This document shows positions 43,775 to 61,355 of a stretch of 64,000 nucleotides of DNA, piece after piece; position 1 is the stretch's first letter, and each line of letters starts with the position of its first letter. This DNA comes from Nocardioidaceae bacterium (GTDB lineage Bacteria > Actinomycetota > Actinomycetes > Propionibacteriales > Nocardioidaceae): positions 1,952 to 65,951 of the forward strand of contig JBOHDX010000048.1 in NCBI GenBank assembly GCA_050700835.1. Direction: 5' to 3'. The notes beneath the pieces were generated by a model. The model was not told where the DNA came from and did no database searches. It worked only from the letters and a program-made list of their open reading frames with translations. The translations under genes and the position numbers were made by a program.

Positions 43775-46700
43775 TCACTGGCCGGGGACGAGGACCACCG
43801 ACCACATCGTGGCCATCGCCGCGGCCGCGTTGGCGGTGGCCACCTGCCCGGCGTACGACGTGCCCGACACGGGGCCACCGGAGTCGGCCAGAAGGGACGA
43901 CACGTGACCGGACAGCGTGCCGAACCCGCTCGCCCGGTTGGTCACCGCTGGGGCGTTCCAGGTCGAGGTGCCGGCGTTCTTGTCCGCCCAGTAGGACACC
44001 ACCCAGTCGCCGGCAGCGACCGGCACTCCCGGTGTGGTGTGCGCGGCGCCCGAGGTCGTCTCAACCCGGTTCGCCGCCACGGGTGCCGCACCGTTGGTGC
44101 CGCTCCAGCCGGCGACGGTGAGCGTCACCTTCGCGGTGGCCGGCAGAGTGACGGTGACTTTCTTGCCGGCGTCGCCGGCCACGGCGGTACGGCTCCACAC
44201 GGTGGTGCCGAGGGTGCCGGCCGTGCTGGTGCCCAACGATGTCCAGCCGGTCGGCGCGGTGATCAGCTGTCCCGGTGACGCGGTGCTGAAGAACAGCAGC
44301 AGCGTGTCCCCGACACCGTCGGCCGCCGGGATCGTGACCGTGGGCTTGGTCGCACTTCCCGCGAACCTCGCGGCGCCCCGGAATGCGAGCACCGGTGCCG
44401 GCGCAGTCACCGTGACGTCGTGCGTCACGCTCGCCTGCGCTCCCTGGTCGTCAGTGACGGTCAAGGTCACTGGGTACGTCCCCGTGCCGGACCAGGTGTG
44501 GCTGGTCGTCGCGCCGGTGCCGGTGGCACCGTCGCCCAGGCTCCAGGCGTACGACACGACCGAGCCGTCGGGGTCGCTGGAACCGGAGCCGTCCAGCGTG
44601 CAGGCCAGGTCGGAGCACACGGCGCCGAACGCCGCGGTCGGTGGCTGGTTCGGCGGTGGCGTCGTCGCCCCGGCGGGGGCTAGCTCGATCGACCACATGG
44701 TCGCCATCCCCGTTGCTGCGTTGGCGGTTGCCGTCTGCTGGCCGTAGGTCGGCGTTGCCGCCGAGCCGGCCGAGTCGGCCAGCAGCGAGGACACGTGCCC
44801 AGCGAGGGTGCCGACGGCGCTGCTGCGCGCGACGACACTGCCGGGGGTGGTCCACGACGTCGTGCCGGCCCCCTTGTCGGCCCAATACGACACCACCCAG
44901 CTGTTCGGGACCGTGTGCACAAGCGGAGTCGTGTGGCTCGCCCTCGTCGTCGTGTCCGAGGCTGCCGCGAAGGTGGGCTGCACGGTGAGGCTGGTGCCGG
45001 TGTAGTCGGCGATGGTCAGAGTCACCTTCGCGCTGGTGGCCAGGATGACCGCGACCTTGCGTGACGCGTCACCCGCCTGCGCGATCCGCGTCCACACCGT
45101 CGTTGCCAAAGAGCCGGCGGTCTTGGTGCCCAGCAGGCTCCAGCCCGGCGGCGGTGTCGCGAGCTGCCCGGCCGATGCCGTGCTCAACACCAGCAACAGC
45201 TGGTCGCCGGCGCTGACGCCGGCCGGAGCCGTCACCGAAGGTTTGTTGGTGCTGCCGGCGTACGAGGCCGCACCGCGGTAGGCGACCCCGGACGCCATCG
45301 CCACGGTGAAGCTCTGTGTCGTCGACGACGAGACGCCCTGGTTGTCGGTGACGGTCAGCGTCACCAGATAGCTGCCCTGCGTCGCATAGGTGTGCGTCGT
45401 GGTTGCGCCGCTGGCGGTGCTGCCGTCGCCGAAGCTCCAGGAGTACGCCGCGATCGACCCGTCGGCGTCCTTCGAGGCGGATCCGTCGAACGAGCAGTCC
45501 AGACCGCTGCACACCCCGGTGAAGGATGCCGTGGGCGGCACGTCGACCGGGGGCTGGACGCTGACCTGGTGGGTGGTGCTGGTGCTGGCGCCGGAGTTGT
45601 CGGTGACGGTGAGCGTGACGGTGTGCGTGCCGGGCGTGGTGTAGGTGTACGACGGGGTCACGCCGGTGCCGGTCCCGCCATCGCCGAAGTCCCAGGAGTA
45701 CGACACGATCGTGCCGTCCTGGTCGGAAGCCGACGTCGCGTCGGAGGCGCAGCTCATGTTCGTGCACGTGGGCGCGAACGACGCGGTCGGCGGCAGGTTC
45801 GCGGTCGCCGACGACAGGAACAGGCCCTTGGCCCGCCAGTCCAGACCTCCGGTGGCCGGGCCGTTGACCACGACCGAGCTTCCGGACGGCCCACCGCCGA
45901 CGAGGGTGACTGCGTTCAGCGAACCGTCCGTGGACGAGGCGACGTACAACGTGGAGCCGGCGATGAACATGCCGTTGGCGCGAGACCAGTTGAAGCCACC
46001 CGTCAGCGTGTTGACGGCGGGGTTCATGATGCCGCTGTCCGGGCTGAACGCGACCCAGCTCAGAGTCGACGATCCGCTGCGCGTGAAGTAGAGCCGGCCG
46101 TTGGCGTAGGCCATCCCGGTGACGGTGCCGAGCTGGGAGTAGACCGTCGGCAGCGTGCCGGAGTACGTCTGGCCACTGCCGGTCTGGACGGTGGCCCAGT
46201 TCGGGTCGTGATAGGGGTCCACCTTGACCGCGGGTCCGAATGTCGTGCCGTCGAAGTCGCGGCGGTAGAGGTATCCGTCGGTGTAGCCGTAGTAGAGCCT
46301 CGTCCCGACCATGAACGCGCCACGCACCTGCGACCAGTCCAGGTCGCTGGTCGCGATCGCGCCGGCCACCGATGCCGTTGTGCCGCCGCTGCCGACGCTG
46401 ACCTGGGCGACCGAGGTGGACGGGGTGCTCGCACTACCGCCGAGGAACGCGGTGCCTGGCAGCGATCCGGTCGCGTTCGACACCACCGGTCGGCCCCCGG
46501 CGTACGGGAAGAACGCGATCCGGGGCCGCTTGTACTGGTAGTTGCCGACATAGCTGGTGTCCATGCCCATCCAGATGCCGGCGTTGGTGGGATAGAACTC
46601 CTTGGCCGACACTCCGCGCGGGTTGCGGCCAGGGTTCCAGTCCAGCGGTTCGCCGGTCTGCGGGTCGAGCGCGGACAGGCCGGGCCGCGGCACCGCGCCC

Positions 46701-47881
46701 TGGCCGGGGCTGTCGACGCCGAACTGGTTGTTCATCCAGCGGTTGTGGCCGCCGATGAACACCACCGAGTTGGTGATCGCCACACCCCAGACCGTGTCGC
46801 GACCGGTGTAGTCGACCCAGGTCGGCTGCAGGTTCGTGCCCGAGGCGTACGTCTCCCACCGTGCGGCCGAGTCGCACAGCGCGCCGGTCGAGCTGCCGCC
46901 GGTGGCGGTGACCACGAACCAGCTGCCGTCGGGCGAGAACGCCACCCCGCGTACGTCGCTGTCGTACGCCCAGTTGAAGCACAGCGGGCTGTAGCGGGTG
47001 GTGGCCCAGTCGGGTGTCACGGAGGCGGCGGTGGCGCCGAGGGTCACCATGACCAGCTGGTCGCGCGACAGCCCGTCGACGATCTTGAAGTTTCCGATCA
47101 CCGCGAGCCGGTCGTTCTGCGGGTTGACCACCATGTCCGTGGCGCCGATACCGCCTTGCGCACCGCTGCCGGCGTTGTTGTGGTGCACCGACATCTGCAG
47201 GTTCACGTACGGGTCGAGCAGCCCTGTCGAGGCGTCGATGCTGGCGATGCCGACGTGGGCGGCCCCACCCACGGTGGTGAAGTAGCCGCCAAGGAACAGG
47301 TGGCTCCCCGACTGCGCCAGCGTCTGCACCGACCCGTTGCTGACGGCTGCGCGGAAGCTGCTCACGACCGCCCCGGTGGTCGCGTCCAGCACCACCACGT
47401 GGCTGGCTGTTGTCCCGTTGACGGTGGTGAAGGCGCCACCGACATAGATCGTGTTGGGGGTCGGGCCTGGGAGCAGGGCGTTGACGACGCCGTTGAAGAC
47501 CGGGTCGAAGGTCGTACTGATGGCTCCGGTCGTCGCGTCGAACGCGAACAACCCGGTCCGGGAGTACGTGGGGGTGCCGCCGCGGGCGGCGACGGTGGTG
47601 AAGTTGCCGCCGGCGATGAGCATGTTGCCGACCTGCACGATCTGCTGCACGCTCCCGTCCTGCACCCAGGGGGTGAACGCGGCGGGCACCGCGCTGGGCA
47701 GCCCCGGGGTGGAGGTGAAGCCCGCGGCAGGGGTCGCGCTTGTCGCGACGTGGGCCGCGGTGGCTCGATCCGCGGAGTGGGCGGCGTCAGCGGAGGTGGC
47801 CGCGACGGCGGCGGGCATGAGCCCCACCCCGGCCGCCACCGACGTGACCACGCAGACGAGCGCAAAAAGACAACGGCGCAT
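43775..47881 (-). CDS. giant secreted protein P1: signal peptide + beta-propeller-like region + PKD x2 + unknown module X + PKD + X
   Basis: The track ORF is 43775..47923; ATG 47881 gives the signal peptide MRRCLFALVCVVTSVAAG...AVAA, with GGGAG upstream. Repeated 'GGNFTTV...FAFDATTGA' blades are followed by three 'YSWDFGDG...TVTLTVTD' PKD-like units and two roughly 205-aa 'GD.LLL...VSYWADK...SLLADS...ATMWS' modules. Confidence 0.8.
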   Translation of the reverse strand: MRRCLFALVCVVTSVAAGVGLMPAAVAATSADAAHSADRATAAHVATSATPAAGFTSTPGLPSAVPAAFTPWVQDGSVQQIVQVGNMLIAGGNFTTVAARGGTPTYSRTGLFAFDATTGAISTTFDPVFNGVVNALLPGPTPNTIYVGGAFTTVNGTTASHVVVLDATTGAVVSSFRAAVSNGSVQTLAQSGSHLFLGGYFTTVGGAAHVGIASIDASTGLLDPYVNLQMSVHHNNAGSGAQGGIGATDMVVNPQNDRLAVIGNFKIVDGLSRDQLVMVTLGATAASVTPDWATTRYSPLCFNWAYDSDVRGVAFSPDGSWFVVTATGGSSTGALCDSAARWETYASGTNLQPTWVDYTGRDTVWGVAITNSVVFIGGHNRWMNNQFGVDSPGQGAVPRPGLSALDPQTGEPLDWNPGRNPRGVSAKEFYPTNAGIWMGMDTSYVGNYQYKRPRIAFFPYAGGRPVVSNATGSLPGTAFLGGSASTPSTSVAQVSVGSGGTTASVAGAIATSDLDWSQVRGAFMVGTRLYYGYTDGYLYRRDFDGTTFGPAVKVDPYHDPNWATVQTGSGQTYSGTLPTVYSQLGTVTGMAYANGRLYFTRSGSSTLSWVAFSPDSGIMNPAVNTLTGGFNWSRANGMFIAGSTLYVASSTDGSLNAVTLVGGGPSGSSVVVNGPATGGLDWRAKGLFLSSATANLPPTASFAPTCTNMSCASDATSASDQDGTIVSYSWDFGDGGTGTGVTPSYTYTTPGTHTVTLTVTDNSGASTSTTHQVSVQPPVDVPPTASFTGVCSGLDCSFDGSASKDADGSIAAYSWSFGDGSTASGATTTHTYATQGSYLVTLTVTDNQGVSSSTTQSFTVAMASGVAYRGAASYAGSTNKPSVTAPAGVSAGDQLLLVLSTASAGQLATPPPGWSLLGTKTAGSLATTVWTRIAQAGDASRKVAVILATSAKVTLTIADYTGTSLTVQPTFAAASDTTTRASHTTPLVHTVPNSWVVSYWADKGAGTTSWTTPGSVVARSSAVGTLAGHVSSLLADSAGSAATPTYGQQTATANAATGMATMWSIELAPAGATTPPPNQPPTAAFGAVCSDLACTLDGSGSSDPDGSVVSYAWSLGDGATGTGATTSHTWSGTGTYPVTLTVTDDQGAQASVTHDVTVTAPAPVLAFRGAARFAGSATKPTVTIPAADGVGDTLLLFFSTASPGQLITAPTGWTSLGTSTAGTLGTTVWSRTAVAGDAGKKVTVTLPATAKVTLTVAGWSGTNGAAPVAANRVETTSGAAHTTPGVPVAAGDWVVSYWADKNAGTSTWNAPAVTNRASGFGTLSGHVSSLLADSGGPVSGTSYAGQVATANAAAAMATMWSVVLVPGQ

Positions 47882-47931
47882 GAGGATGGCTCCCGAGAAA
47901 GGGGACGGTTGTCCCACGACCATTCAGTCCG

Positions 47932-48083: not shown

Positions 48084-48866
48084 TCAGCCTGTCGTGTCCA
48101 GGAAGTCGAGTATCGCGCCGGCGAGCTCCGGCCGGCAGACGATCAGGTCTGGCAGCAGCGGGTCGGCGTGGTTGTACGTCAGCGGCGACCCGTCCACCCG
48201 GCTGGTGTGCAGCCCGGCGGCCCGGGCCACCGCCACCGGGGCGGCGGAGTCCCACTCGTACTGCCCGCCGGCATGCACGTAGGCATCGGAGACGTCCCGG
48301 ACAACGGAGATCACCTTGGCGCCGGCCGACCCCATCGGCACCAGGTCCGCGCCCAGCCGCTCGGCGAGTGCAGCCACGAAGTCCGGCGGCCGGGTCCGGC
48401 TGACGGCGATCCGCGGCCGCGGCGCCGAGCTGGCCGGCAGCACCGGAGGCACGCCGGTGTGGAACGTCGCGTCCAGTCCCGGCAGCGCCACTGCGCCGGC
48501 GACCAGCTCGCCCTCGGACCACAGCGCCACGTGGACGGCCCAGTCGTCGCGCGGCGGCTCGGAGAACTCGCGGGTGCCGTCCAGCGGGTCGACGATCCAG
48601 ACCCGGTCAGCGGCCAGGCGTACCGGGTCGTCCTTGCCCTCCTCGGACAACACCGCGTCGGCCGGCCGGTGCCGGGCCAACAGCCGCATCAGTAGCTCGT
48701 GGCTGGTCAGGTCACCGGCGTCCTTGAGCTCCTTGCCGGTCAGACCGGACTGCCTGACCTCGAGCAGACGCCGACCGGCCACGGTGGCGAGCCAGGCGGC
48801 CAGCGCGTGGTCGTCGACGTCGACGCGGGGAGGCGCCGGATCGCCGGCGCCGGATGGTGAAGTCAC
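48084..48866 (-). CDS. cysQ: 3'(2'),5'-bisphosphate nucleotidase / inositol monophosphatase-family protein (CysQ-like)
   Basis: This is the last 260 aa of ORF 48084..49484 (GTG 48866; the start is uncertain). 'VLSEEG', 'WIVDPLDGTREF' and 'YEWDSAAP' are IMPase/CysQ motifs. Confidence 0.75.
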   Translation of the reverse strand: MTSPSGAGDPAPPRVDVDDHALAAWLATVAGRRLLEVRQSGLTGKELKDAGDLTSHELLMRLLARHRPADAVLSEEGKDDPVRLAADRVWIVDPLDGTREFSEPPRDDWAVHVALWSEGELVAGAVALPGLDATFHTGVPPVLPASSAPRPRIAVSRTRPPDFVAALAERLGADLVPMGSAGAKVISVVRDVSDAYVHAGGQYEWDSAAPVAVARAAGLHTSRVDGSPLTYNHADPLLPDLIVCRPELAGAILDFLDTTG

Positions 48867-51957: not shown

Positions 51958-52196
51958 GGCGACGATCGAGGTCTGCCCACAAGTTATCCACAAGGACAGG
52001 GGAAATCGCACCCATAATTCGGCGCTGTGTTAGTCCACGGCTACACCGCGTAACCACAATCGGCCGATTGGAACCAAGATTCTGCAACCCTTCGCGTGGT
52101 CCTTCCGGAACCACCCAATGGCATCGATGGACCATCGCCGCAGGCGCGCCGCGCGCGTAGCGTCGCGTGGCAGGCAACCGTCGCGGGAGGGTCGAG

Positions 52197-53560
52197 ATGG
52201 GTACGAAGCGCATCAATGCAGTGGTGGCGGCCGTCGCGGCGGCCGGCCTCGTCCTGGTCCCGGCGACCGCCAGCGGCGCGGGCACCAGCACGCCCCCCGG
52301 GTCGGACTGGCTCGCCTACGGCCGCAACGCCGGACACACGTCGGCGTCCTTCGGCGACCCTGCGATCACCACGTCCAACGCAGGAAGCCTGTCAGCGAAG
52401 TGGCACTTCACCCCCGGTACGTCGTTCGACGCCAGTCCGACCGTCGCGGCCGGGCGGGTCTTCATCGGCGGCCGCAACGCCGTCGTCTATGCACTCGACG
52501 CGAAGACGGGTGCACTCCTGTGGCAGCGCCAGCTCGACAAGGGCTCGAGGACGTACTGCCCGGCCAAGGGAATCGTGGGCACCGCCACCGTCGCGCCGGA
52601 CCCGGTGACCGGGGTGTCGACCGTGTACACGCCCGGCGCGCATTTCCTGTACGCCTTGAACGCCGCCACCGGAGCGGTCGTCTGGAAGACCGCGATCGGG
52701 CCGGTGGCCGGATCTTCATGGGTCTGGCGGCCGACTGCGAGTCCCGGCTGATCCGTGGCGGGGTGGTGTCACTCGACCAGCACACCGGCGCCATCCAGCA
52801 CACCTACTACGCCGTTCCGGCCGGAAAGGTCGGGGCAAGCGTGTGGAGCAGCGAGGCGAGCGACGGCACGTCGGTGTGGGCGACCACCGGCAACCCGGAC
52901 CCGCACGGCACCACGATCGACGACGCGTACTCGATCGTGCGCCTGTCGGCGTCGACGATGGCCCGCCAGGACAAGTGGACCGCGCCGCTGGGCCAGGCGG
53001 CCGACCTCGACTTCGGCAGCTCCCCCACCATCTTCAAGGGGACCGTGGGCGGGGTCTCCACCGGACTCGTGGGTGCCTGCAACAAGAACGGCGTCTTCTA
53101 CGCCTGGAACAAGGCGAACCTCGCCGCCGGTCCGGTGTGGTCCGCGCAGGTCGCCGGGTCGGAGTCGAGCGGCAAGGGCTTCTGCATCACCTCGGCCGCC
53201 TGGGACTTCGCGGCCCAGCACCTGTTCGTCGCGACCCAGACCAGCACCCTGAACGGACTGCCCGTCCACGGTGCACTGCGCGAGCTCGATCCCTCGACCG
53301 GTGCGTTCCTGTGGCAGACCGCGCTGCCGTGCGGCGTGGACGGCAGCCCCACCCTCAACGGCTCGACCAACGTGTTGGCGGTGCCACAGTTCAGCTGCCC
53401 GACCGGGGTCGCCCCGTCGGTACGCCTGTTCAACGAGACTACCGGGGCCGCGATCGGCTCGGTGCCCGCCAGTGACAAGGTGTTCGCCCAGCCGGTGTTC
53501 GCCGAGGGCCAGCTGCTGGTCGCCGACGAGGCCGGCCACCTCACGTCCTACGGCCCGTGA
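52197..53560 (+). pseudogene. PQQ-like beta-propeller (BamB/PQQ-repeat-like) secreted protein, reading frame broken near 52698-52712
   Basis: The N-terminal 184 aa (ATG 52197 after GGGAGG; signal peptide MGTKRINAVVAAVAAAGLVLVPATASG; 'VVYALDAKTGALLWQ', 'LYALNAATGAVVWK') are in the frame of ORF 52167..52751. The homologous continuation ('GRIFMGLAADCESRLIRGGVVSLDQHTG...', 'FYAWNKANLAAGPVW', 'LRELDPSTGAFLWQ') is in the -1 frame of ORF 52118..53560. Confidence 0.6.
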
Positions 53561-53588: not shown

Positions 53589-56500
53589 TCAGTCGGCCGG
53601 CAGTACGACCGACCACATCGTGGCCATCCGCGCCGCGGCGTCGGCCGTCGCGGTCAGCCCACCACGCGTACCCGCCGAGACCGGCCCACCGGAGTCGGCC
53701 AGCAACGACGCCACCCGACCGGTCTTGACCCCGACCGACTGCGCCCGCCGAACAAGACCCGCTGGCAGCGTCCACGACGTCGTGGTTGAGGACTTGTCGG
53801 CCCAGTACGACACCACCCACGCACCGCTACCGGCCGCGACGGTCGGCGTGGTGTGCGCCGCGGACGACGCGGCGTCCTGGGCCGTGGCGAAGCTCGGGGT
53901 GGCGCTGGTGCCGCGGTAGGCCGCGACCGAGAGCGTCACCTTCGACCGACCGCCGAGCCGCACCTTCACCAGCGCGCCGGCCTCCCCGGTGGCGGCCATC
54001 CGGGTCCACATCGTGGTGCCCAGCGTCCTGGCCGTGTTCGAGCCCAGCCGGCTCCACCCGGCCGGCGGCGTGGCGCTGCGCGCTGGGCTGTTGGTGCTGA
54101 GCACCAGCAGCAGGCGGTCACCGGCCGCCACCCCGGCCGGGATCCGCACACCGGGAGCGGTGGTGTTGCCGGCGACCGAGTCCGCGCCCACGAACCGGAC
54201 CGCACCCTGACCCGGCTGCACCGCCGTCACCGAGTGCGACACCGTGCTGGTGCCGCCCTTGTCGTCGGTCACCGTGAGGCTGACCGTGTAGGCGTTCGGC
54301 GTCGAGTAGGTGTGCGACGGCGTCGCCCCCGCACCGGTGCTGTTGTCGCCGAAGCTCCAGGCGTACGCCGTGATCGACCCGTCGGGATCGTGGGACGCGG
54401 TTGCGTCGAGTCCACAGGTCATCCCGGTGCACGACGGGCTGAAGGCCGCGACCGGGGCTTGGTTCCCGGCGGGACCGCCACTGGGCGGGGCGACCGTGAC
54501 CGTCTTCGTCGCGGTGCCGGTCGCGCCCTTGTCGTCGGTGACGGTCAGCGTCACCGGGTACGTACCGGCGCGCACGTAGGTGTGCGGCGGGTTCGCAGCG
54601 GTGGACGTGGCGCCGTCACCGAACGCCCACTTGAACCGCCTGACGATCCCGTCGGGGTCGTGGGACCCCGACCCGTTGAACGCGCAGGCAAGCCCGCTGC
54701 ACGACGATCCGATCACCGCGCTCGGCGGTTGGTTGGCGGTCCCGGCGAGCCGAAGCGTCCAGCTGGTGGTGTTGGTCAACCCCTGTGCGTCGGCGACGGT
54801 CATCGTCACGGTGAAGAAGGCACCGGCCGCGCCGTAGTTGTGCGACGTGGTCCTGCCGGTGCCACGGGTCCCGTCGCCGAAGTACCACGTGTAGGACACG
54901 ATCCCACCGTCGTCGGTGGAGCTGGACGCGTCGAAGCTGCAGGTGGTGGCGGTGCAGGTGGGGACGAACTGCGCGACCGGCGGCTGGTTCTGGGGGGAGA
55001 ACAAGAACAGCCCGGGCGTCGCCCAGTTAAACGCGGAGTTGACCTTCGACGACGACCCGAGGGGCGCGCCGCCCGCGCTCATCGGCACGGCGTTCAAGGA
55101 GCCGTCCGTCGACGACCCGACGTACAGCGTGGACCCGCTGAAGAACATGCCACGGGCGTGGCTCCAGCTGAAGCCGCCGGAGTAGTTGGTGGCGATCGGG
55201 TTCACGATCCCGCTGTCCGGCGTGAACAGCACCGAGTGCAGCTGTGCGTTGCCGTTCAGCGTGTAGTACAGCCGGCCGTTGCTGTACGCCATCCCGCTGA
55301 CCGAGCCGGACCGGAACGAGTCGTACAACGGCGGCGAGACGCCGACGTAGGTCTGGCCGCTGCCGGTCTGCACGTTGCTCCAGACCGGATCGTGGTACGG
55401 GTCGATCTTGACCGCCGGGCCGAAGGCCGTGCCGTTGAACGTCCGCTTGTACAAGAACCCGTCGGTGTAGCCGTAGAACAAGGTGGCGCCGACCAGGGTC
55501 GCGCCGCGCACCTTGGTCCAGTCGAACCCGGGCGTGGACAGGCTGCCGGCGGCCGTGGCGATCGAACCGGACCCGCTCAGCGACACCATCGGGACGGCGT
55601 TCGCGCCGCCGGAGCCGCCGAGCAGAACCCTGCCGGGCAGAGTGCTCACAGTGGTCGGCGCGACGGGCCGGCCCCCGGTGTAGGGGAAGAACACCAACCG
55701 CGGGTGGTGGTACCGGTGGTTTCCAACCCAGTCGGTGTCCATCCCCATCCAGATCCCCTGGTTGGTGGGCAGGAACACCTTCGCCGACACTCCGCGCGGG
55801 TTGCGTCCGGGGTTCCAGTCCAACGGCTCGCCGCTGACCGGATCGAGCGCCGACAGGCCAGGTCGCGGTACCGCGCCGGCTCGGGCGTTGTCGGTGCCGT
55901 TGGGGTTGTTCATCCACCGGTTGTGCCCCCCGACGTAGACCACGTCGTCGGTGACCGCCACGCCCCACACCGTGTCCCGGCCGGTGAGGTCGACCCACGT
56001 CGGGTCCAGGCTGGTGCCGGTGGCGTAGGTCTCCCAGCGGGCCGCCGCGTCGCACAGCGCCCCCGGCTGGCTGCCGCCGGTCGCGGTCACCACGAAGAAC
56101 GTCCCGTCGGGCGAGAACGCCACGCCGCGCACGTCACTGTCGTACGCTCGCGCGATGCAGGTCGGGCTGTAGCGGTTGGTCGCCCAGTTCGACGTCACCG
56201 ACGCCGAAGTGGCGCCGAGGGTGATCATCACCAGCTGGTCGCGAAGCATCCCGTTCGCGGTCTTGAAGTTGCCGATCACCACCAGCCGGTCGCCCTGGGC
56301 GTTGATGTCCATCTCGTTGCCGCCGATCGCGCCACGCGCACCGCCGGGGACGGTGTTGTGGTGGCCGTCGAGCTGGACGCCCATGTAGGGGTCCAGCGCG
56401 CCGGTGGTCGCGTTCATGGTGGCCAGGCCCGAGTGGGCGACCCCGCCGACGGTGCGGAAGTTGCCGCCGACGAACAGCCGGTTTCCCAGCCGCGCCAGCG

Positions 56501-57032
56501 TCTGTACGACGCCGTTCGTCGCGGCCGCGCGGAACGACGTCACGACCGCGCCGGTGGTGACGTCGAGCAGCACCAGGTGGCTCTGGTTGGTGCCGTTGAC
56601 GGTGGTGAAGCTGCCGCCGACGTACACGGTTCCCGCGATCGGACCCGCCAGCAGGTGGTTGACGTTGCCGTTCAGCACCGGGTTGAACGTGGTGACGATC
56701 GCACCGGTGGCCGCGTCGAAGGCAAAGACCGCGGTCCGCGAGTACGTCGGGGAGCCGCCGGCGGCCGCGACCGAGGAGAAGTTGCCCCCGGCCACCATGA
56801 TCTGGCCGACCCGTGCGTACGCCTGCACGCTGCCGTCCCTGGCCCACGGGGTGTATGCCGCCGGGACCGGGCTGGGCAACCCTGATCTGGCCGTCCAGCT
56901 GATCTGCGGCGTCGGCCCGTCCGCGGTGCCGGCGGCAGTGGCCGCCGGCGTCGCGGTCGCCGTCGCGAGGAGCCCAGGGACGACCACGAGGGCGGTGGTG
57001 AACGACAGGAGGCTGATCAGGAAACGTCGCAC
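53589..57032 (-). CDS. giant secreted protein P3: signal peptide + propeller-like region + PKD x3 + module X
   Basis: 1147-aa ORF with a GTG start 6 nt after GGAG and the signal peptide MRRFLISLLSFTTALVVVPGLLATATA. It has the same blade and 'RWMNNP', 'DPYHDP' motifs as P1 and P4, three PKD-like units and one C-terminal module X. Confidence 0.8.
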   Translation of the reverse strand: MRRFLISLLSFTTALVVVPGLLATATATPAATAAGTADGPTPQISWTARSGLPSPVPAAYTPWARDGSVQAYARVGQIMVAGGNFSSVAAAGGSPTYSRTAVFAFDAATGAIVTTFNPVLNGNVNHLLAGPIAGTVYVGGSFTTVNGTNQSHLVLLDVTTGAVVTSFRAAATNGVVQTLARLGNRLFVGGNFRTVGGVAHSGLATMNATTGALDPYMGVQLDGHHNTVPGGARGAIGGNEMDINAQGDRLVVIGNFKTANGMLRDQLVMITLGATSASVTSNWATNRYSPTCIARAYDSDVRGVAFSPDGTFFVVTATGGSQPGALCDAAARWETYATGTSLDPTWVDLTGRDTVWGVAVTDDVVYVGGHNRWMNNPNGTDNARAGAVPRPGLSALDPVSGEPLDWNPGRNPRGVSAKVFLPTNQGIWMGMDTDWVGNHRYHHPRLVFFPYTGGRPVAPTTVSTLPGRVLLGGSGGANAVPMVSLSGSGSIATAAGSLSTPGFDWTKVRGATLVGATLFYGYTDGFLYKRTFNGTAFGPAVKIDPYHDPVWSNVQTGSGQTYVGVSPPLYDSFRSGSVSGMAYSNGRLYYTLNGNAQLHSVLFTPDSGIVNPIATNYSGGFSWSHARGMFFSGSTLYVGSSTDGSLNAVPMSAGGAPLGSSSKVNSAFNWATPGLFLFSPQNQPPVAQFVPTCTATTCSFDASSSTDDGGIVSYTWYFGDGTRGTGRTTSHNYGAAGAFFTVTMTVADAQGLTNTTSWTLRLAGTANQPPSAVIGSSCSGLACAFNGSGSHDPDGIVRRFKWAFGDGATSTAANPPHTYVRAGTYPVTLTVTDDKGATGTATKTVTVAPPSGGPAGNQAPVAAFSPSCTGMTCGLDATASHDPDGSITAYAWSFGDNSTGAGATPSHTYSTPNAYTVSLTVTDDKGGTSTVSHSVTAVQPGQGAVRFVGADSVAGNTTAPGVRIPAGVAAGDRLLLVLSTNSPARSATPPAGWSRLGSNTARTLGTTMWTRMAATGEAGALVKVRLGGRSKVTLSVAAYRGTSATPSFATAQDAASSAAHTTPTVAAGSGAWVVSYWADKSSTTTSWTLPAGLVRRAQSVGVKTGRVASLLADSGGPVSAGTRGGLTATADAAARMATMWSVVLPAD

Positions 57033-57082: not shown

Positions 57083-57206
57083 GGCCCCGCTAACTCCACT
57101 CTCAGACGTTCGCCGAAATGCCCTGGAAAACGGCCGATATTCCTGGCATTACGTGATACGTCGCTCACGCTGCGTGTCGGTTAGTCGGGCAGATGGTGCC
57201 CACCGG

Positions 57207-60200
57207 TCAGGTTCCGGCTGGCACCACGATCGACCACATCGTCGCCATCGTGGCCGGTGTGTTGGTGGTGGCGGTGACGCCGGCGCGGGTTCCGGCGCTG
57301 ACCGGGCCGTTCGTGTCGGCGAGCAGCGAGGTGACGCGCCCGGACAGCGTGCCGTAGTTCTGCTGGCGCGAGGTGACCGTCCCCGGTGGCGTCCACTTCG
57401 TCGTGGTGCCGGACTTGTCCGCCCAGTAGGACACGACCCATGCCTTGTCGGGCGCGGAGATGCTGGGCGTGGTGTGGGACGCCTTCGAGGTGGTGTCCTG
57501 GGCGACCGTGAACGTCGGCTGCGTCGTGGTGCTGGCCCCGGTGTAGTCGACGACGGTCAGCGTGGCCTTCGCGCTGCCGCTGAACGCCACCTTGACCTTG
57601 GACCCCGCGTCACCGCTCACCGCTGTCTTGGTCCACACGGTCGTGGCCAGCGTGTTCGCGGTGTTCGTGCCGAGCTTGGTCCAGCCCGCCGGTGGGGTGT
57701 TCGTCCGGGCCGGGCTGTTGGTGCTAAGCACCAGCAGCAGCCGGTCGTTGACCGCGACGCCGCTCGGCACCGTCACGGTCGCCGCCTTGGCGTTGACCGC
57801 GACCCCTGCGGCACCGACGAACGCGACCTGGCCCGGCGTCGGCACGGTCACCGTCACCGTGTGGCCCGTCGGAGTGCTCTGGGCGCCCCCGTTGTCGGTC
57901 ACGGTCAGGGTCACCGTGTAACCGCCCGAGCCGGAGTAGGGGTGCGACGTCCCGGTCGTGGTATCTGTTTCGACCGGCGTGCCGTCGCCGAAGTCCCAGT
58001 CGTACCGCACGACGGTGCCGTCAGTGTCCTTCGAGCCGGAGCCGTCGAACGTGCAGGTCGCGCCCGCGCAACTGGACGTGAACGCCGCCGTCGGCGGCTG
58101 GTTGGCCGGTGGGGTACCACCGTCCGGGATCAGCAGGATCGACCACTCGGTGGCCATGCCGAGACTGATGCTCGACGTCGCGGTCAGGCCCCCGGCCGTC
58201 GAAGCCAGCGCCGACCCGTTGGAGTCGGCCAGAAGCGACGACACCTGGCCCGCCTGCGTGCCGGACGCCTGGGTGCGGGGCGCCGTCGTACCGGGCGCCG
58301 TCCACGTCGTGGCCGGTGACGTAGACGAACCGCCCTTGCCCGCCCAGTAGGACACCAGCCACGACCCGGTGCTCGTCGAGATCGTCGGCGTGGTGCGTTG
58401 GGTGCCGGACGCGAGGTCGCCGTTCGAGACGAACGTGGGAGTGTTTCCGCCGGCGTCGTGGTAGTCGGCCACCGTGAGCGTGGACTTCACGCCGGTCCGG
58501 GACAGTGTCACCGAGACGGGGTTGCCGCCCTCGGACCCGCCCGCGACCTCGGTCCACACGGTCGTCGCCATCGTCTTGGAGACCTGGCTGCCGAGCAGGC
58601 TCCATCCGGTCGGAGCGGTGGCGGTGACGGTGCTGTCGTTGACGGTCGAGATCAGTAGCAGCCGGTCCCCGGCGATGATCGACGTGGGCGCCGTGACCGT
58701 GGGCTTGAGCTGCGTCTGCGCGACCGAGGTCGCGTCGCCGAAGGACACTCCCGTGCCCTGCGAGCCGACGTTGATCACCTTCGACGTGCTCCCGGTCGCT
58801 CCCCCGTCGCTGTCAGTCACCGTAAGCGTGACGGTGTACTGACCGGCGCTGGGGAAGGCGTGTTGCAGGGTCGCCCCTGATGCCGCCGAGGTCTGGTCAC
58901 CGAAGTCCCACGAGTACGACGTGATCGTGCCGCCGTCCGGATCGCTAGACGCGGACCCGTCGAAACTGCAAGTCAAGCCGGTGCAGCCGGTCACGGTGAA
59001 CGACGCCGTCGGCGGCTGGTTGGGCGGCGTGGTCACCGACACCTGCTGGGTGTTGGTGGCCGAGCGCCCCTTGTTGTCCGTCACGGTCAGCGTCACGGTG
59101 AAGGGGCTGCCGGTGGCCGGGAAGATGTGCGACGTCTTGGGCGAGGTGTCAGTCTCGCTGTTCCCGTCGCCGAAGTTCCACTGGTACGACGTGATCGTGC
59201 CGGTGGGGTCGCTCGACGACGACGCGTCGAAGCTGCAGTTCGTCCCACCCGGCGGGCAGTTGAACACGAACGACGCGTTCGGCGGCTCGTTCTGACCGGC
59301 CGAGGACAGGAACAGTCCCTTGGCCCGCCAGTCGACCGTGCTGTTGACCACGGTCGAGGTGCCGGTGGGCGCGCCGTTGCTGCCGAGGGCGACGACGTTG
59401 AGCGAGCCGGTCAGCGCCGACGCGACGTACAACGTGGAGCCGCTGACGAACATCCCCTGTGCGTTCTTCCAGGCGAAGCCGCCGGTGGTGTAGTTGTTCG
59501 GCTTCGGGCTGACGATCCCGCTGTCCGGGGAGAACGCGACCGAGTGCAGTGACGAGTCATTGCTGACCGTGTAGTAGAGCAGCCCGTTGGCGTACGCCAT
59601 CCCGGTGACCGTGCCGCTCTTGAACAGGCTGTACAGCGGCGGCGACACGCCGACGTAGGTCTGGCCGCTGCCGGTGTTGACGTTGCTCCAGTACGGGTCG
59701 TGGTACGGGTCGATCTTCACGGCCGCTCCGAACGTGCTGCCGTCGAAGCTGCGCTCGTACAGGAAGCCGTCGGTGTAGCCGTAGAACAGGTGGCCCCCGA
59801 CCATCACCGCACCGCGCACCTGTGACCAGTCGATCCCCGTCCCGCTCAGCGTGCCCGGCGTGCCGCTGTTGCCGGCAGCGTCGAGCGACACGTTCGAGAT
59901 GCTGCCGGTGCTGTCGCCGGAGTGGCCGCCGAGAAACACCTGGCTAGGCAGCGAGCCGGTGAAGTTGGTGGCCACGGGGCGTCCGCCATTGAGCGGGAAG
60001 AAGGCCAGTTTGGGTGTGTGGTACTGGAAGTTGCCGACGTAGTCGGTGTCCATCCCCATCCAGATGCCGGTGTCGGTGGGCAGGAACACCTTCGCCGAGA
60101 CGCCCCGCGGGTTGCGGCCCGGGTTCCAAGCCAGCGGCTCGCCGGTCAGCGGGTCCAGCGCCGACAGGCCCGGTCGAGGCACCGCACCGGCCGCCGCGCT

Positions 60201-61355
60201 GTCGGTGCCGGACGGGTTGTTCATCCACCGGTTGTGGCCGCCGATGAAGACCACGTCGTTGGTGATCGCGACTCCCCACAGGGTGTCCTTGCCGGTGAAG
60301 TCGACCCAGGTCGGGCTCAGACTGGTCCCGGACGCGTACGTCTCCCATCTGGCCGCCGAGTCGCACAGCGTGTTGTTGCCGTAGCCGCCGGTGGCGGCGA
60401 CCACGAAGAACTGGCCGTTGGGGGAGAAGTCGATCCCACGGATATATTGGTCATATCCGGAGCTGCAGTTCGGGTTGTACGCGGAGGTTCCCCAGTCCGG
60501 GGTCACCGACGCCGAGGTGGGGCCGAGAGTGATCATCGCCAGCTGGTGATGCAGGCTCCCGTCCGCGCTGGTGAAGTTGCCGATCACCGCAAGCCGGTCG
60601 CCAGGGGAGTTGATCGACATCTCGAACACGCCCTGCGCCGCCTGGGTGCCGACGCCGCCGCGCTGGTCGCCGGTCATCTGCACGCCCATGTAGGGGTCGA
60701 GCGCACCGGTGCTCGCGTCCAGCGTGGCCAACCCGGCATGCGCGATACCGCCAACGGTCTTGAAGTTGCCGCCCACGAACAGCCGGTTGCCGCTGAGCTG
60801 GATCGTCTGCACCGCGCCGTTCGTCGTGGCCGCCTTGAAGCTGCTGACGATCGCGCCGGTGTTCACATCCAGCAGGACGACGTGGGAGGCGGGCGTGCCG
60901 TTGACGTTGGTGAACGTGCCGGCCGCAAACACGGTGCCGGGGACGGGACCGGCCAGCAGGTGGTTCACCACCCCGTTGAGGACCGGAGCGAACGTCGTGC
61001 TCACCTGGTTGGTGGAGGTGTCGAACGCGAAGATCGAGTTCCGGGTGAAGACGGTTCCCCCGCCCTTGTTGGTCACCGACGTGAAGTTGCCACCGGCCAC
61101 CATGGTGGTCCCGACCTGGGCAAAGCTCTGCACGCTGCCGTTCTGCACCCACGGCGTCGAGGTGGAGGGCACGGCGCTGGGCAGCCCGGACCAAGTGGCG
61201 TGCGGCAACGGCGTGCTGGGTGCTGCTGACGCGCCGACCTTCCCCCCGGCGCCGGCGACGACGCCGGGCGCCGCACTCGCCGCCGGTGCGATCAGCAGGG
61301 TGGTGGCGACCACCGAGGAGGCGAGCGAGAGGAGGGTGATCAGCAAGCGTCGCAC
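57207..61355 (-). CDS. giant secreted protein P4: signal peptide + propeller-like region + PKD x2 + X + PKD + X
   Basis: 1382-aa ORF with a GTG start 6 nt after GGGGAG and the signal peptide MRRLLITLLSLASSVVATTLLIAPAASA. Its architecture is collinear with P1. Confidence 0.8.
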   Translation of the reverse strand: MRRLLITLLSLASSVVATTLLIAPAASAAPGVVAGAGGKVGASAAPSTPLPHATWSGLPSAVPSTSTPWVQNGSVQSFAQVGTTMVAGGNFTSVTNKGGGTVFTRNSIFAFDTSTNQVSTTFAPVLNGVVNHLLAGPVPGTVFAAGTFTNVNGTPASHVVLLDVNTGAIVSSFKAATTNGAVQTIQLSGNRLFVGGNFKTVGGIAHAGLATLDASTGALDPYMGVQMTGDQRGGVGTQAAQGVFEMSINSPGDRLAVIGNFTSADGSLHHQLAMITLGPTSASVTPDWGTSAYNPNCSSGYDQYIRGIDFSPNGQFFVVAATGGYGNNTLCDSAARWETYASGTSLSPTWVDFTGKDTLWGVAITNDVVFIGGHNRWMNNPSGTDSAAAGAVPRPGLSALDPLTGEPLAWNPGRNPRGVSAKVFLPTDTGIWMGMDTDYVGNFQYHTPKLAFFPLNGGRPVATNFTGSLPSQVFLGGHSGDSTGSISNVSLDAAGNSGTPGTLSGTGIDWSQVRGAVMVGGHLFYGYTDGFLYERSFDGSTFGAAVKIDPYHDPYWSNVNTGSGQTYVGVSPPLYSLFKSGTVTGMAYANGLLYYTVSNDSSLHSVAFSPDSGIVSPKPNNYTTGGFAWKNAQGMFVSGSTLYVASALTGSLNVVALGSNGAPTGTSTVVNSTVDWRAKGLFLSSAGQNEPPNASFVFNCPPGGTNCSFDASSSSDPTGTITSYQWNFGDGNSETDTSPKTSHIFPATGSPFTVTLTVTDNKGRSATNTQQVSVTTPPNQPPTASFTVTGCTGLTCSFDGSASSDPDGGTITSYSWDFGDQTSAASGATLQHAFPSAGQYTVTLTVTDSDGGATGSTSKVINVGSQGTGVSFGDATSVAQTQLKPTVTAPTSIIAGDRLLLISTVNDSTVTATAPTGWSLLGSQVSKTMATTVWTEVAGGSEGGNPVSVTLSRTGVKSTLTVADYHDAGGNTPTFVSNGDLASGTQRTTPTISTSTGSWLVSYWAGKGGSSTSPATTWTAPGTTAPRTQASGTQAGQVSSLLADSNGSALASTAGGLTATSSISLGMATEWSILLIPDGGTPPANQPPTAAFTSSCAGATCTFDGSGSKDTDGTVVRYDWDFGDGTPVETDTTTGTSHPYSGSGGYTVTLTVTDNGGAQSTPTGHTVTVTVPTPGQVAFVGAAGVAVNAKAATVTVPSGVAVNDRLLLVLSTNSPARTNTPPAGWTKLGTNTANTLATTVWTKTAVSGDAGSKVKVAFSGSAKATLTVVDYTGASTTTQPTFTVAQDTTSKASHTTPSISAPDKAWVVSYWADKSGTTTKWTPPGTVTSRQQNYGTLSGRVTSLLADTNGPVSAGTRAGVTATTNTPATMATMWSIVVPAGT

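What the first reader, a model, noticed from the sequence alone, without database searches (positions are those of the whole stretch)
43775..61355. Locus of four giant paralogous secreted propeller-PKD-unknown-module proteins
Seen in the sequence: four minus-strand ORFs (P1 43775-47881, P2 48992-51904, P3 53589-57032, P4 57207-61355) share one collinear plan.
- Each begins with a Sec-type signal peptide (MRR...AxA).
- A region of roughly 650-700 aa follows with reiterated blade-like motifs ('GGNFTxV...R..LFAFDA.TGA', 'RWETY..GT.L.PTWVD', 'GGHNRWMNNP', 'GAVPRPGLSALDP.TGEPL.WNPGRNPRG', 'DPYHDP.W..VQTGSGQTY').
- Then come 1-3 PKD-like units ('PPTASF...C.FDGS.S.D.DG.I..Y.WDFGDG...H.Y...G.Y.VTLTVTD').
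- Each ends in 1-2 copies of an unassigned module of about 205 aa.
- The module formula differs by paralog: P2 is PKD-X, P3 is PKD3-X, and P1 and P4 are PKD2-X-PKD-X.
- In one aligned stretch (the RWMNN region of P1, P3 and P4) DNA identity looks like roughly 75-80% by eye, so these are old paralogs rather than an assembly duplication.
- Each gene has its own low-GC upstream island and RBS.
- Together they occupy about 14 kb of the 17.6 kb, with cysQ and a broken PQQ-like propeller gene embedded between them.

Inference: this looks like an expanded, modular family of extracellular binding or enzymatic proteins of unknown function, inserted next to the conserved mfd gene. I know of no characterised system with this architecture.
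Basis: partly seen in the sequence, partly recalled or inferred. Interest (0 to 1): 0.8.

Follow-up and report, generated by a model that had tools for sequence, protein, structure and literature searches.

The report
Secreted propeller proteins of sulfated-polysaccharide locus
Four intact, related genes encode large exported proteins (an uncharacterised beta-propeller head, PKD spacers and an unnamed tail module shaped like phage tail-fibre tips); relatives sit beside a sulfotransferase-rich polysaccharide-synthesis cluster in about half of the related Actinomycetota loci examined, so they most likely bind or process that surface sugar polymer.

Summary
P1-P4 are intact minus-strand paralogs (42-58% aa identity) with the stated plan: signal peptide, a ~640-aa propeller core, 1-3 PKD domains, and 1-2 copies of a ~205-219-aa module X.

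The interpretation needs revising.
- The source is a Nocardioidaceae MAG. All four proteins are deposited as 'PKD domain-containing protein'.
- The propeller core is a large uncharacterised Actinomycetota family (>1000 protein clusters, >=581 genomic hits).
- In 41 of 78 related genome loci it lies within 10 kb of sulfotransferase or Wzy genes of a Wzx/Wzy polysaccharide cluster. That cluster resembles wps-1 of Actinoplanes missouriensis and is often next to mfd.
- In the source contig this cluster starts at the window's end (PAP2, GT2, sulfotransferase) and continues beyond it. cysQ fits, as a PAP recycler.
- X is a very large unnamed family (8136 representatives, no Pfam or NCBIfam model, no PDB neighbour). 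Its confident model matches predicted actinophage minor tail proteins (TM 0.75-0.83).
- PKD-X cassettes also follow phytases, phosphatases and a sulfatase, so X looks like a general glycan or cell-envelope tether.

Best reading: surface-tethered exoproteins dedicated to the neighbouring, probably sulfated, polysaccharide. Whether the propeller is catalytic is unresolved. It is a real, uncharacterised, moderately interesting lead, not a unique island.

The parts
43775..47881 (-). P1, 1368 aa. Signal peptide aa 1-31. Propeller core aa 62-692 (nt 45806-47698). PKD x2 (nt 45299-45805). X1 (nt 44669-45298). PKD (nt 44405-44668). X2 (nt 43778-44404).
   Evidence: Deposited as MGH3497044.1, 'PKD domain-containing protein'.
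48992..51904 (-). P2, 970 aa. Divergent and very basic paralog: the core has net charge +47. Core nt 49901-51787. PKD nt 49652-49900. X nt 48995-49651. The N-terminal AVLSC sequence fits a lipobox pattern.
   Evidence: Deposited as MGH3497046.1.
53589..57032 (-). P3, 1147 aa. Core nt 54993-56885. PKD x3 nt 54210-54992. X nt 53592-54209.
   Evidence: Deposited as MGH3497049.1.
57207..61355 (-). P4, 1382 aa. Core nt 59286-61223. PKD x2 nt 58761-59285. X1 nt 58119-58760. PKD nt 57840-58118. X2 nt 57210-57839.
   Evidence: AF2 models of the core (pLDDT 93.2) and of X2 (pLDDT 96.9). Deposited as MGH3497050.1.
48084..48851 (-). cysQ-like 3'(2'),5'-bisphosphate nucleotidase. It would recycle PAP, the by-product of PAPS-dependent sulfotransferases.
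   Evidence: Pfam Inositol_P 9e-28. NCBIfam bisphos_cysQ 1.4e-28, better than HisN at 7.6e-14 but below the equivalog cut-off. cysQ is also near the propeller genes in L003, L004 and L009.
52167..53560 (+). PQQ-like (BamB-type) secreted propeller gene, interrupted by a frameshift near 52700.
   Evidence: The GC3 phase switches. Translations. Called as two overlapping genes, 184 aa (PQQ, PQQ_2) and 280 aa, in the deposited assembly.
61515..62360 (-). PAP2-family phosphatase, a probable undecaprenyl-pyrophosphate phosphatase. It is the first gene of the polysaccharide cluster.
   Evidence: Pfam PAP2 2.3e-7. PAP2 is adjacent to the propeller gene in 8 other loci.
62447..63427 (+). GT2 glycosyltransferase, WpsA-like.
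   Evidence: Pfam Glycos_transf_2 8e-22. 35-51% identical homologues lie next to propeller genes in 21 loci.
63452..64000 (-). C-terminal sulfotransferase part of a 493-aa Alg13-like GT/sulfotransferase fusion. The gene runs off the window.
   Evidence: Pfam Sulfotransfer_1 and Sulfotransfer_3. The full gene and the downstream cluster (Alg14, a second sulfotransferase, a Branch-like GT, Wzx) are in L084.
39965..43585 (-). mfd (transcription-repair coupling factor). It is the conserved housekeeping border of the locus.
   Evidence: Pfam. mfd flanks propeller genes in 12 of the 78 genome loci.

Best explanation
P1-P4 are functional, exported accessory proteins of the neighbouring Wzx/Wzy-type, sulfotransferase-rich polysaccharide biosynthesis locus (a wps-1-like cluster).

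**Proposed mechanism**
1. Each protein is exported through an N-terminal signal peptide. This is shown by sequence; conserved Cys pairs fit an extracytoplasmic location.
2. The C-terminal PKD-X cassettes act as spacers plus glycan or cell-envelope binding tethers. This is inferred from three things: X shares its fold with predicted actinophage minor tail proteins, it carries invariant Trp/Lys/Arg/Asp residues, and the same cassette follows many unrelated secreted enzymes.
3. The conserved two-part propeller core (~640 aa) is the working head. Its single, non-repeated set of invariant polar loop motifs (GGH-x-RW-x-NN, GAVPRPG, WNPGRNPRG, DPYHDP) would form one site that recognises the locus's own, probably sulfated, surface polymer.
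4. I favour that the head also cleaves or remodels the polymer (catalytic, about 0.35) over pure binding or cross-linking (about 0.30).
5. The four copies differ in valency (one or two X modules) and in charge (the P2 core is +47). That suggests division of labour on a polyanionic polymer.

**Shown:** the anatomy, the paralogy, the fold predictions and the conserved gene neighbourhood.
**Inferred:** binding, the identity of the target polymer, its sulfation, and catalysis.
For: **Conserved neighbourhood**
- Of 78 genome loci holding a homologue of the core, from many Actinomycetota genera, 38 have a sulfotransferase within 10 kb, 35 a Wzy, 32 a Wzz, 29 a Wzx and 21 the GT2. 41 have a sulfotransferase or Wzy, and 32 have both.
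- Gene calls with Pfam annotation confirm the cluster in four independent contigs.
- In six Micromonospora species the order Wzz-DUF3048-Wzy-u262-ST-Wzx-GH26-like-PROP is all on one strand. In L042 the gap before the propeller gene is only about 70-150 nt.
- Gene content and partial order match the wps-1 cluster of A. missouriensis, which is needed for sporangium formation and is predicted, not shown, to make a sulfated EPS (PMC13390465).

**The source contig**
- The cluster abuts P4 and continues beyond the window: PAP2, GT2, an Alg13-sulfotransferase fusion, Alg14, a second sulfotransferase, a Branch-like GT and Wzx.
- cysQ lies inside the array.

**Module X**
- The AF2 model has pLDDT 96.9.
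- Foldseek against BFVD gives TM 0.75-0.83 and E down to 1.7e-12. The named matches include Mycobacterium and Gordonia phage minor tail proteins, a Microbacterium phage GDPD protein and an uncharacterised Clavibacter phage protein.
- The mycobacteriophage baseplate accessory proteins tested so far bind cell-wall glycans on glycan arrays (PMC13252515).
- PKD-X cassettes occur after phytases (11 of 56), ConA-like and RCC1 domains, a phosphoesterase, a purple acid phosphatase, a sulfatase, CotH and VWA domains. X therefore behaves as a portable targeting module.
- Invariant residues are G52, W53, K91, W139, K142, R158, G167 and D175.
- Most X copies are basic, with pI 9.4-11.6.

**Propeller core**
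- The AF2 model has pLDDT 93 and pTM 0.93, consistent with one rigid body.
- 51 columns are invariant across 52 sequences, including 16 polar residues concentrated in loops at positions 325-375.
- Relatives exist as the core alone, with PKD-X, or with malectin inserted between the two parts of the core. A conserved core with variable CBM-like modules is the pattern typical of glycan-active enzymes (general knowledge).

**Genes are live**
- All four are intact, have GC3 of 0.90-0.93 and carry an RBS.
Against: - There is no experimental evidence for any member of the family.
- No similarity to any known glycoside hydrolase, lyase or lectin propeller was found. Pfam and PDB sequence searches are empty for the core. 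Foldseek against PDB gives only generic double-propeller hits with TM <= 0.36.
- The cluster already has a weak GH26-like candidate glycanase.
- About half of the homologous loci show no cluster genes within 10 kb, so some paralogs may work elsewhere.
- In A. missouriensis none of WpsA-K is this propeller, and sulfation of any such polymer is unproven.
- The phage link for X is fold-only. tblastn against phages, PHROGs, and hhalign against Tweety gp21 (identified only by its matching length) are all negative.
I could not see whether the invariant residues cluster in a pocket.
Confidence: 0.45

Rival explanations
1. The proteins are non-catalytic matrix or adhesin proteins. The propeller and its lectin-like modules only bind and cross-link the exopolysaccharide or tether it to the cell. 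This would work like Vibrio cholerae Bap1 and RbmC, which are beta-propellers with an inserted lectin domain that organise the VPS matrix.
For: - The proteins are multivalent, with one or two X modules and 1-3 PKD domains.
- Relatives carry malectin inserted between the two parts of the core, which parallels the lectin insertion in Bap1 (general knowledge).
- Tandem paralog expansion with differences in charge and valency is typical of surface-binding proteins.
- A GH26-like gene already supplies a candidate glycanase.
- The heparin-sensing BT4663 double propeller appears among the generic Foldseek hits.
Against: - The conserved polar motifs are unique rather than repeated blade by blade, unlike many propeller lectins.
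- The core-alone form (~660 aa, with no extra binding module) is common next to the cluster.
- No Bap1 or RbmC entry is among the 50 listed PDB matches.
Confidence: 0.3
2. The proteins are nutrient-scavenging or otherwise unrelated exoenzymes. They act on environmental substrates such as plant or soil glycans or phosphate esters and are merely co-located with the polysaccharide cluster.
For: - PKD, malectin and X modules are also attached to phytases, phosphatases and a sulfatase.
- About half of the homologous loci lack cluster genes within 10 kb.
Against: - The linkage to sulfotransferase and Wzy genes persists across families as distant as Micromonosporaceae, Geodermatophilaceae, Nocardioidaceae and Dermatophilaceae, whether or not mfd is present.
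- In Micromonospora the arrangement is same-strand and tightly spaced.
- There is no hit to Phytase or any CAZy-type Pfam family.
Confidence: 0.12
3. The proteins are phage-receptor maskers or decoys. Host-encoded proteins carrying the same fold as phage tail tips would occupy or mimic the surface glycan receptor and block adsorption.
For: - X shares its fold with predicted actinophage minor tail proteins.
- The paralogs are expanded and diversified.
Against: - PADLOC gives no hit.
- There are no neighbouring defence genes.
- X is also attached to ordinary secreted enzymes.
- There is no sequence-level link to phages.
Confidence: 0.04
4. The genes are decaying relics: silent paralogs with no current function.
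For: - A neighbouring PQQ-like gene is frameshifted.
- P2 sits on a long branch and has an odd composition.
Against: - All four ORFs are intact over 970-1382 codons.
- GC3 is 0.90-0.93 and each gene has an RBS.
- All family-invariant residues are retained, in P2 as well.
- A sibling assembly has near-identical copies: 2 differences in 1368 aa of P1.
Confidence: 0.03

Closest known systems
wps-1 exopolysaccharide cluster of Actinoplanes missouriensis (WpsA-K; PMC13390465)
   Same: - Both are Wzx/Wzy-dependent clusters with two different sulfotransferase families, GT2, WecG/GT26, GH26, a kinase-like protein, Wzx, Wzy and Wzz.
- The same gene families flank the propeller genes in many loci, and the order Wzx-ST-(u262)-Wzy-Wzz matches.
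- GT2 and sulfotransferase genes abut P4 in this window.
   Different: - None of WpsA-K is described as a ~650-aa propeller or a PKD-X protein.
- The products of the adjacent genes AMIS_7260 and AMIS_7270 are not described in the text I could read.
- The sulfated product is predicted only.
- Wzy and Wzz were not seen within the 8.4 kb available beyond this window.
Vibrio cholerae biofilm matrix proteins Bap1 and RbmC (from my own knowledge)
   Same: Both are secreted beta-propellers combined with lectin-type modules and are functionally tied to a specific exopolysaccharide. A lectin domain inserted into the propeller resembles the malectin insertion in relatives of P1-P4.
   Different: - No sequence or fold match was detected.
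- The organism type differs (monoderm actinobacteria).
- The accessory modules differ (PKD and X).
Distal domains of actinobacteriophage 'minor tail proteins' (predicted structures in BFVD, e.g. Hawkeye X2KSL9, Tweety A5YJY9, Gaia, Shauna1)
   Same: They share the all-beta fold of module X (TMq 0.63-0.83, E down to 1e-12). The mycobacteriophage baseplate accessory proteins tested so far bind cell-wall glycans on arrays (PMC13252515).
   Different: - Sequence identity is only 11-24%.
- Sequence methods find nothing.
- None of these phage domains has a solved structure that Foldseek matches to X.
- Their ligands are unknown.
Beta-propeller carbohydrate-active enzymes with appended CBMs (e.g. ulvan lyases PL24 and PL25; from my own knowledge)
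   Same: Both have a secreted propeller core with variable binding modules, and their substrates include sulfated polysaccharides.
   Different: No detectable homology in Pfam, PDB sequence search or Foldseek, and no catalytic residues can be assigned.
Pfam DUF5122 (delta-60-type) and Rax2 C-terminal propeller repeats
   Same: The first four or five blades (GG-x-FT-x-V-x-G motifs) give weak hits. Some relatives carry precomputed DUF5122 or Rax2 hits.
   Different: The window proteins score below the gathering cut-offs (21.8 against 27; 26.3 against 28.8). These families have no known function and do not cover the conserved motif region or the second part of the core.

Membership tests
PKD domain (Pfam PF18911 / PF00801) | HMM score above the gathering cut-off, with the WDFGDG and TLTVTD motifs | tested here: met
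   PKD_4 scores 80-214 bits against a cut-off of 27, with 3, 1, 3 and 3 copies in P1-P4. PDB hits to the ColH and ColG PKD domains reach 1e-22.
DUF5122 / Rax2 beta-propeller (PF17164 / PF12768) | HMM score above the gathering cut-off | tested here: not met
   The best scores are 21.8 and 17.4 bits (cut-off 27) for DUF5122, and 26.3 and 22.8 bits (cut-off 28.8) for Rax2. There is a repeat-level resemblance only.
Beta-propeller fold | Repeated four-stranded antiparallel sheets arranged radially | tested here: met
   The AF2 model has pLDDT 93.2 and pTM 0.93, with about 11 four-strand units. 1187 Foldseek PDB matches have E <= 1e-3, and the 50 best listed are propeller-containing entries. Blade-level similarity to the designed propeller Scone was seen.
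Malectin-containing subfamily (PF11721) | A malectin domain between the two parts of the core | tested here: not met
   P1-P4 have no malectin hit. It is present in 16 of 32 long relatives.
Known propeller glycoside hydrolase or polysaccharide lyase families | Sequence or fold match to a characterised catalytic propeller, with its catalytic residues | tested here: not met
   No Pfam or NCBIfam hit. The PDB profile search found nothing at E <= 0.1. None appears in the 50 listed Foldseek matches, and TM is <= 0.36. The search used the undivided 646-aa model, so a domain-wise search could still find one.
wps-1-like Wzx/Wzy sulfated-polysaccharide cluster (as an accessory gene) | Sulfotransferase(s), GT2, Wzx, Wzy and Wzz in the same locus | tested here: inconclusive
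   - In the source contig GT2, two sulfotransferases, Alg13 and Alg14, a Branch-like GT, Wzx, PAP2 and cysQ are present.
- Wzy and Wzz are not within the 8.4 kb retrievable beyond the window.
- The full set accompanies the propeller gene in 32 of 78 other loci.
wps-1-like Wzx/Wzy sulfated-polysaccharide cluster (as an accessory gene) | The polymer is actually sulfated and the propeller acts on it | not testable with these tools
   This needs chemistry and genetics. Even for A. missouriensis the sulfated product is only predicted.
Actinophage minor-tail distal domain (fold class of module X) | Same fold (TM > 0.5) with significant Foldseek probability | tested here: met
   84 BFVD matches have E <= 1e-3. 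All 50 listed have probability 1.00, and the best reach TMq 0.75-0.83.
Actinophage minor-tail distal domain (fold class of module X) | Detectable sequence homology | tested here: not met
   tblastn against 50,697 phage genomes gave no match at E <= 0.01. PHROGs gave none. hhalign against Tweety gp21 gave probability 0.1.
Anti-phage defence systems (PADLOC) | Match to a defence-system protein model | tested here: not met
   No hit at E <= 1e-3 for any of the four proteins.

The most novel reading that the evidence does not exclude
- The propeller core is the founding member of a new family of extracellular polysaccharide-active enzymes (lyase or hydrolase) that are specific for self-made sulfated polysaccharides of Actinomycetota.
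- Module X is a new, very abundant carbohydrate or cell-envelope binding module.
- Actinophages use the same fold at their tail tips to recognise the same surface polymers.
- Together this would make putative sulfated-EPS loci, now thought rare outside cyanobacteria, a widespread and experimentally approachable feature of soil actinobacteria.
Probability: 0.25. Interest if true: 0.8.

Novelty: new variant of a known kind. Interest (0 to 1): 0.55.

Why it matters
- Sulfated polysaccharides are regarded as uncommon in bacteria outside cyanobacteria (PMC13390465). Here a conserved sulfotransferase-rich Wzx/Wzy cluster turns up across many actinobacterial families. It comes with a dedicated, completely uncharacterised secreted propeller family as a frequent companion.
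- Module X is a domain family of more than 8000 cluster representatives with no Pfam or NCBIfam model and no solved structure. Its fold links host surface proteins to actinophage tail tips.
- If X binds envelope glycans, it would define a new anchoring or CBM-type module for monoderm actinobacteria.
- It would also point to what those phage tail proteins recognise.
- The locus gives concrete constructs to test: the core alone, X alone, and the very basic P2 core.

Tried and rejected
**Searches that found nothing**
- Pfam, NCBIfam, PHROGs and PADLOC scans of X and the core gave nothing above threshold. The only hits were the PKD domains and one function-unknown PHROG matching some blades.
- PDB sequence and profile searches with the full protein, the core, the second part of the core (B domain) and X found only PKD hits and a blade-level match to the designed propeller Scone.
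- Foldseek against PDB found no real neighbour for X (best E 9e-3, TM <= 0.31), with only faint jelly-roll and capsid-like hits.
- Foldseek against PDB for the core found only generic double propellers.
- Sequence-level tests of the phage link were all negative: tblastn against phages, and hhalign against Tweety gp21 and gp17.
- Rfam, tRNA and promoter or terminator scans of the locus showed nothing relevant.
- Literature searches for DUF5122, malectin or PKD propellers returned nothing relevant.
- Two context look-ups failed because the proteins were not on record.

**Ideas rejected**
- Assembly duplication. The paralogs share only 55-72% nucleotide identity.
- Relationship of the core to beta-propeller phytase. 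There is no Pfam hit, although phytases do carry PKD-X.
- LPXTG or other covalent anchoring. No such C-terminal motif is visible in the translations.

**Analysis not trusted**
- The NG86 dN/dS values (0.44-0.83) are distorted by the extreme GC3 bias.

- I could not learn what AMIS_7260 and AMIS_7270 encode.
- I could not obtain model coordinates to map the invariant residues.

Full report
**1. Observation**

The four minus-strand ORFs are present as described.
- Their sizes are P1 1368 aa, P2 970 aa, P3 1147 aa and P4 1382 aa.
- They are unmistakable paralogs. BLASTP gives E = 0 over the full length, with 55-58% identity among P1, P3 and P4 and 42-45% identity to P2.
- Nucleotide identity over the first ~700 codons is 68-72% among P1, P3 and P4 and 55-57% to P2. 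It rises to 79-82% around the GGHNRWMNN motif. This rules out an assembly artefact.
- Pfam finds 3, 1, 3 and 3 PKD domains.
- Aligning the C-terminal modules gives six X copies of 206-219 aa.
- Each gene has a GGAG ribosome-binding site 7-9 nt upstream and a lower-GC leader.
- GC3 is 0.90-0.93.
- The embedded genes are a CysQ-like PAP phosphatase and a PQQ-like propeller gene with a frameshift near 52700.

**2. Source and names**

- The exact proteins are deposited from a MAG labelled Nocardioidaceae bacterium as MGH3497044.1, MGH3497046.1, MGH3497049.1 and MGH3497050.1. All four are named 'PKD domain-containing protein'. The 107,634-bp contig retrieved is CDHZZD010000059.1 of assembly GCA_975305185.1.
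- A sibling assembly carries P1 with only two amino-acid differences.

**3. The N-terminal core**

- A search with P4 residues 45-690 found more than 1000 protein clusters at 90% identity. Those that carry an organism name are all from Actinomycetota.
- They occur in three forms: core alone (~660 aa), core-PKD-(X) (~965-975 aa), and core with malectin.
Taxa include Nocardioidaceae, Geodermatophilaceae, Micromonospora, Terrabacter, Phycicoccus, Janibacter, Kineosporia, Actinomadura, Frankiaceae, Ilumatobacteraceae and others.
- AlphaFold2 with a 52-sequence alignment gives a confident single rigid body: pLDDT 93.2, pTM 0.93, and about 11 four-stranded blade-like units.
- In malectin-bearing relatives the malectin sits between the first ~420 residues and the last ~190. 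The core therefore has two parts that always travel together.
- Fifty-one alignment columns are invariant. They include 16 polar residues in unique, non-repeated loop motifs: GGH-x-RW-x-NN, GAVPRPG, WNPGRNPRG and DPYHDP. There is also a near-invariant Cys pair.
- No characterised relative could be found by Pfam or NCBIfam, by PDB sequence profiles or by Foldseek against PDB, which returned only generic double propellers with TM <= 0.36.
- In a neighbour-joining tree P1, P3 and P4 form one clade, a lineage-specific triplication. P2 is an older, long-branch paralog.
- The P2 core is extraordinarily basic, with net charge +47 and 73 Arg.

**4. Module X**

- X has no Pfam, NCBIfam or PHROG family.
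- A full HMM search over 1.84 billion representative proteins found 8136 proteins at E <= 1e-3 and 734 at E <= 1e-30. X often lies at or near the C-terminus, in one to six copies.
- The AF2 model is very confident (pLDDT 96.9) and all-beta with 14 strands.
- It has no neighbour among solved structures: best Foldseek E is 9e-3 and TM <= 0.31.
- It matches predicted viral proteins strongly, with TMq 0.75-0.83 and E down to 1.7e-12. Named matches include minor tail proteins of Mycobacterium phages Hawkeye, Gaia, Shauna1, Tweety, PP, Phabba and Tourach and of Gordonia phage Beyoncage, a GDPD-annotated protein of Microbacterium phage ValentiniPuff, and uncharacterised proteins of Clavibacter phage CMP1 and of Rhizobium phages.
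- The link is fold-only. Sequence and profile methods do not see it.
- Invariant residues are G52, W53, K91, W139, K142, R158, G167 and D175.
- Most X copies in the window are basic.
- PKD-X cassettes are also attached to beta-propeller phytases (11 of 56 sampled), ConA-like and RCC1 domains, a phosphoesterase, a purple acid phosphatase, a sulfatase, CotH and VWA domains.
- X therefore behaves as a portable C-terminal targeting module. By analogy with phage baseplate accessory proteins that bind cell-wall glycans (PMC13252515), I infer that it binds envelope or exopolysaccharide glycans.

**5. Genomic context, the main new result**

- Using gene calls from three related contigs as probes, I scored all fetched loci.
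- Of the 78 genome loci, 38 have a sulfotransferase within 10 kb of the propeller gene. 35 have a Wzy-like polymerase, 32 a Wzz, 29 a Wzx flippase and 21 the GT2. 41 have a sulfotransferase or Wzy, and 32 have both.
- Other recurrent genes are a second sulfotransferase family, a weak GH26-like protein, Alg13 and Alg14-type GT subunits, a Branch-like GT, DUF3048, PAP2 and WecG.
- The association holds with or without mfd, which is present in 12 loci.
- In six Micromonospora species the genes Wzz-DUF3048-Wzy-u262-ST-Wzx-GH26-like-propeller lie on one strand. In L042 the gap before the propeller gene is about 70-150 nt.
- The gene set and part of the order match the wps-1 cluster of Actinoplanes missouriensis. 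[quoted passage not shown]
- For this window, the source contig shows that the cluster begins right after P4 and continues past position 64000. The genes are PAP2, GT2, a 493-aa Alg13-like/sulfotransferase fusion whose C-terminus is the window's last ORF, Alg14, two unknowns, a second sulfotransferase, another unknown, a Branch-like GT and Wzx.
- CysQ inside the array fits a PAPS-consuming pathway.
- On the other side, mfd, a 233-aa ORF, mazG, eno and ppx follow in the usual housekeeping order (compare).
- Tandem propeller arrays beside mfd recur in other MAGs: L044, L034, L028 and L032.

**6. Explanation**

- The best-supported reading is that P1-P4 are exported accessory proteins of this polysaccharide locus. 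PKD-X cassettes tether them to envelope glycans, and the propeller head carries one conserved site directed at the polymer.
- I put about 0.65 on this general statement.
- Within it, I put about 0.35 on a catalytic head. The reasons are the conserved core with variable CBM-like appendages, the common stand-alone core form, and the many invariant polar residues.
- I put about 0.30 on a purely binding or cross-linking role like Bap1 and RbmC.
- Lesser rivals are unrelated scavenging exoenzymes (0.12), phage-receptor masking (0.04) and dead relics (0.03).
- Nothing here is experimentally shown. Export is read from the sequence, the folds are predicted, the linkage is statistical, and binding, sulfation and catalysis are all inferred.

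**7. Novelty and verdict**

- The finding is real and the proteins are uncharacterised.
- It is not a singular island. It is a four-copy expansion of a widespread actinobacterial family that belongs to a recognisable kind of system, an EPS locus with dedicated secreted glycan-directed proteins.
- What is new is the unnamed propeller core, the very large unnamed X family with its phage-tail fold relatives, and the breadth of the sulfotransferase-rich cluster across Actinomycetota.
- I rate it a new variant of a known kind, with interest about 0.55.

Noticed in passing
window 52167-53560 (+): A secreted PQQ-like (BamB-type) propeller gene is split by a frameshift near 52700. The high-GC3 phase switches there, and the deposited assembly calls it as two overlapping genes of 184 and 280 aa. 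I could not tell whether this is a real pseudogene or a MAG consensus error.
   Followed up: partly
window 49901-51787 (P2 core) and 51848-51904 (P2 N-terminus): The P2 propeller core has net charge +47 (73 Arg, pI 11.6), whereas the other three cores range from -9 to +3. The P2 N-terminus (…ASACAVLSC…) fits a lipobox pattern with Cys19. A polycationic paralog in a putative polyanionic-polysaccharide locus is suggestive but untested.
   Followed up: partly
window 47882-48031, 51905-52054, 57033-57182, 61356-61505 (minus strand): The four upstream regions share about 64% identity. Shared elements include CACGC…GGTAATC…AATCACGCAG about 115-150 nt before the start and TTTAAT or TTAAC about 50 nt before it. 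The duplications therefore carried the regulatory region, and there may be a common operator or promoter. No Rfam family was hit.
   Followed up: partly
window 63452-64000 (-) and L084 7428-8909: The last ORF of the window is the sulfotransferase half of a 493-aa fusion with an Alg13-like (Glyco_tran_28_C; PssE/WelK-like) glycosyltransferase subunit, followed by an Alg14-like gene. A GT-sulfotransferase fusion of this kind is unusual.
   Followed up: partly
proteins P0156-P0301; alignments A4 and A7: The PKD-X cassette is attached to many unrelated secreted heads: beta-propeller phytase in 11 of 56 sampled, and also Laminin_G_3, RCC1, phosphoesterase, purple acid phosphatase, sulfatase, CotH, VWA, cadherin-like and RTX domains. 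X is a promiscuous module that deserves its own family definition.
   Followed up: partly
window 43778-45298, 57210-58760 and 53592-54209 (X modules): The two X copies within P1 are more alike (57%) than positionally equivalent copies in P1 and P4 (47% and 51%). P3_X pairs with P4_X2 (60%). The PKD before the last X in P1 and P4 is closest to the middle PKD of P3. This suggests module shuffling or concerted evolution.
   Followed up: partly
window 45743-45745 (P1 residue 713, first PKD): The window copy reads C-A-S-D where the sibling assembly and all other PKD units have the canonical C-x-F-D. It is one of only two differences in 1368 residues.
   Followed up: no
P4 core residues 97-240 (window ~60504-60935): The DUF5122-like blades hit a phage protein family of unknown function (phrog_5490, E 1.6e-18). 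Phages therefore also carry this blade type.
   Followed up: no
window 1988-4573 (-): An 861-aa protein combines PRTase_2, TRSP, StiP (a tellurite-like stress resistance cysteine protease) and PELOTA_1 domains. It is unrelated to the finding.
   Followed up: no
L086 18429-20855 and 22550-23051; L080 1001-2620: Other secreted PKD-bearing enzymes (phosphoesterase, purple-acid-phosphatase-like) and a CBM96 protein sit in the same polysaccharide clusters of related MAGs. This suggests a wider set of surface-targeted exoproteins around these loci.
   Followed up: no
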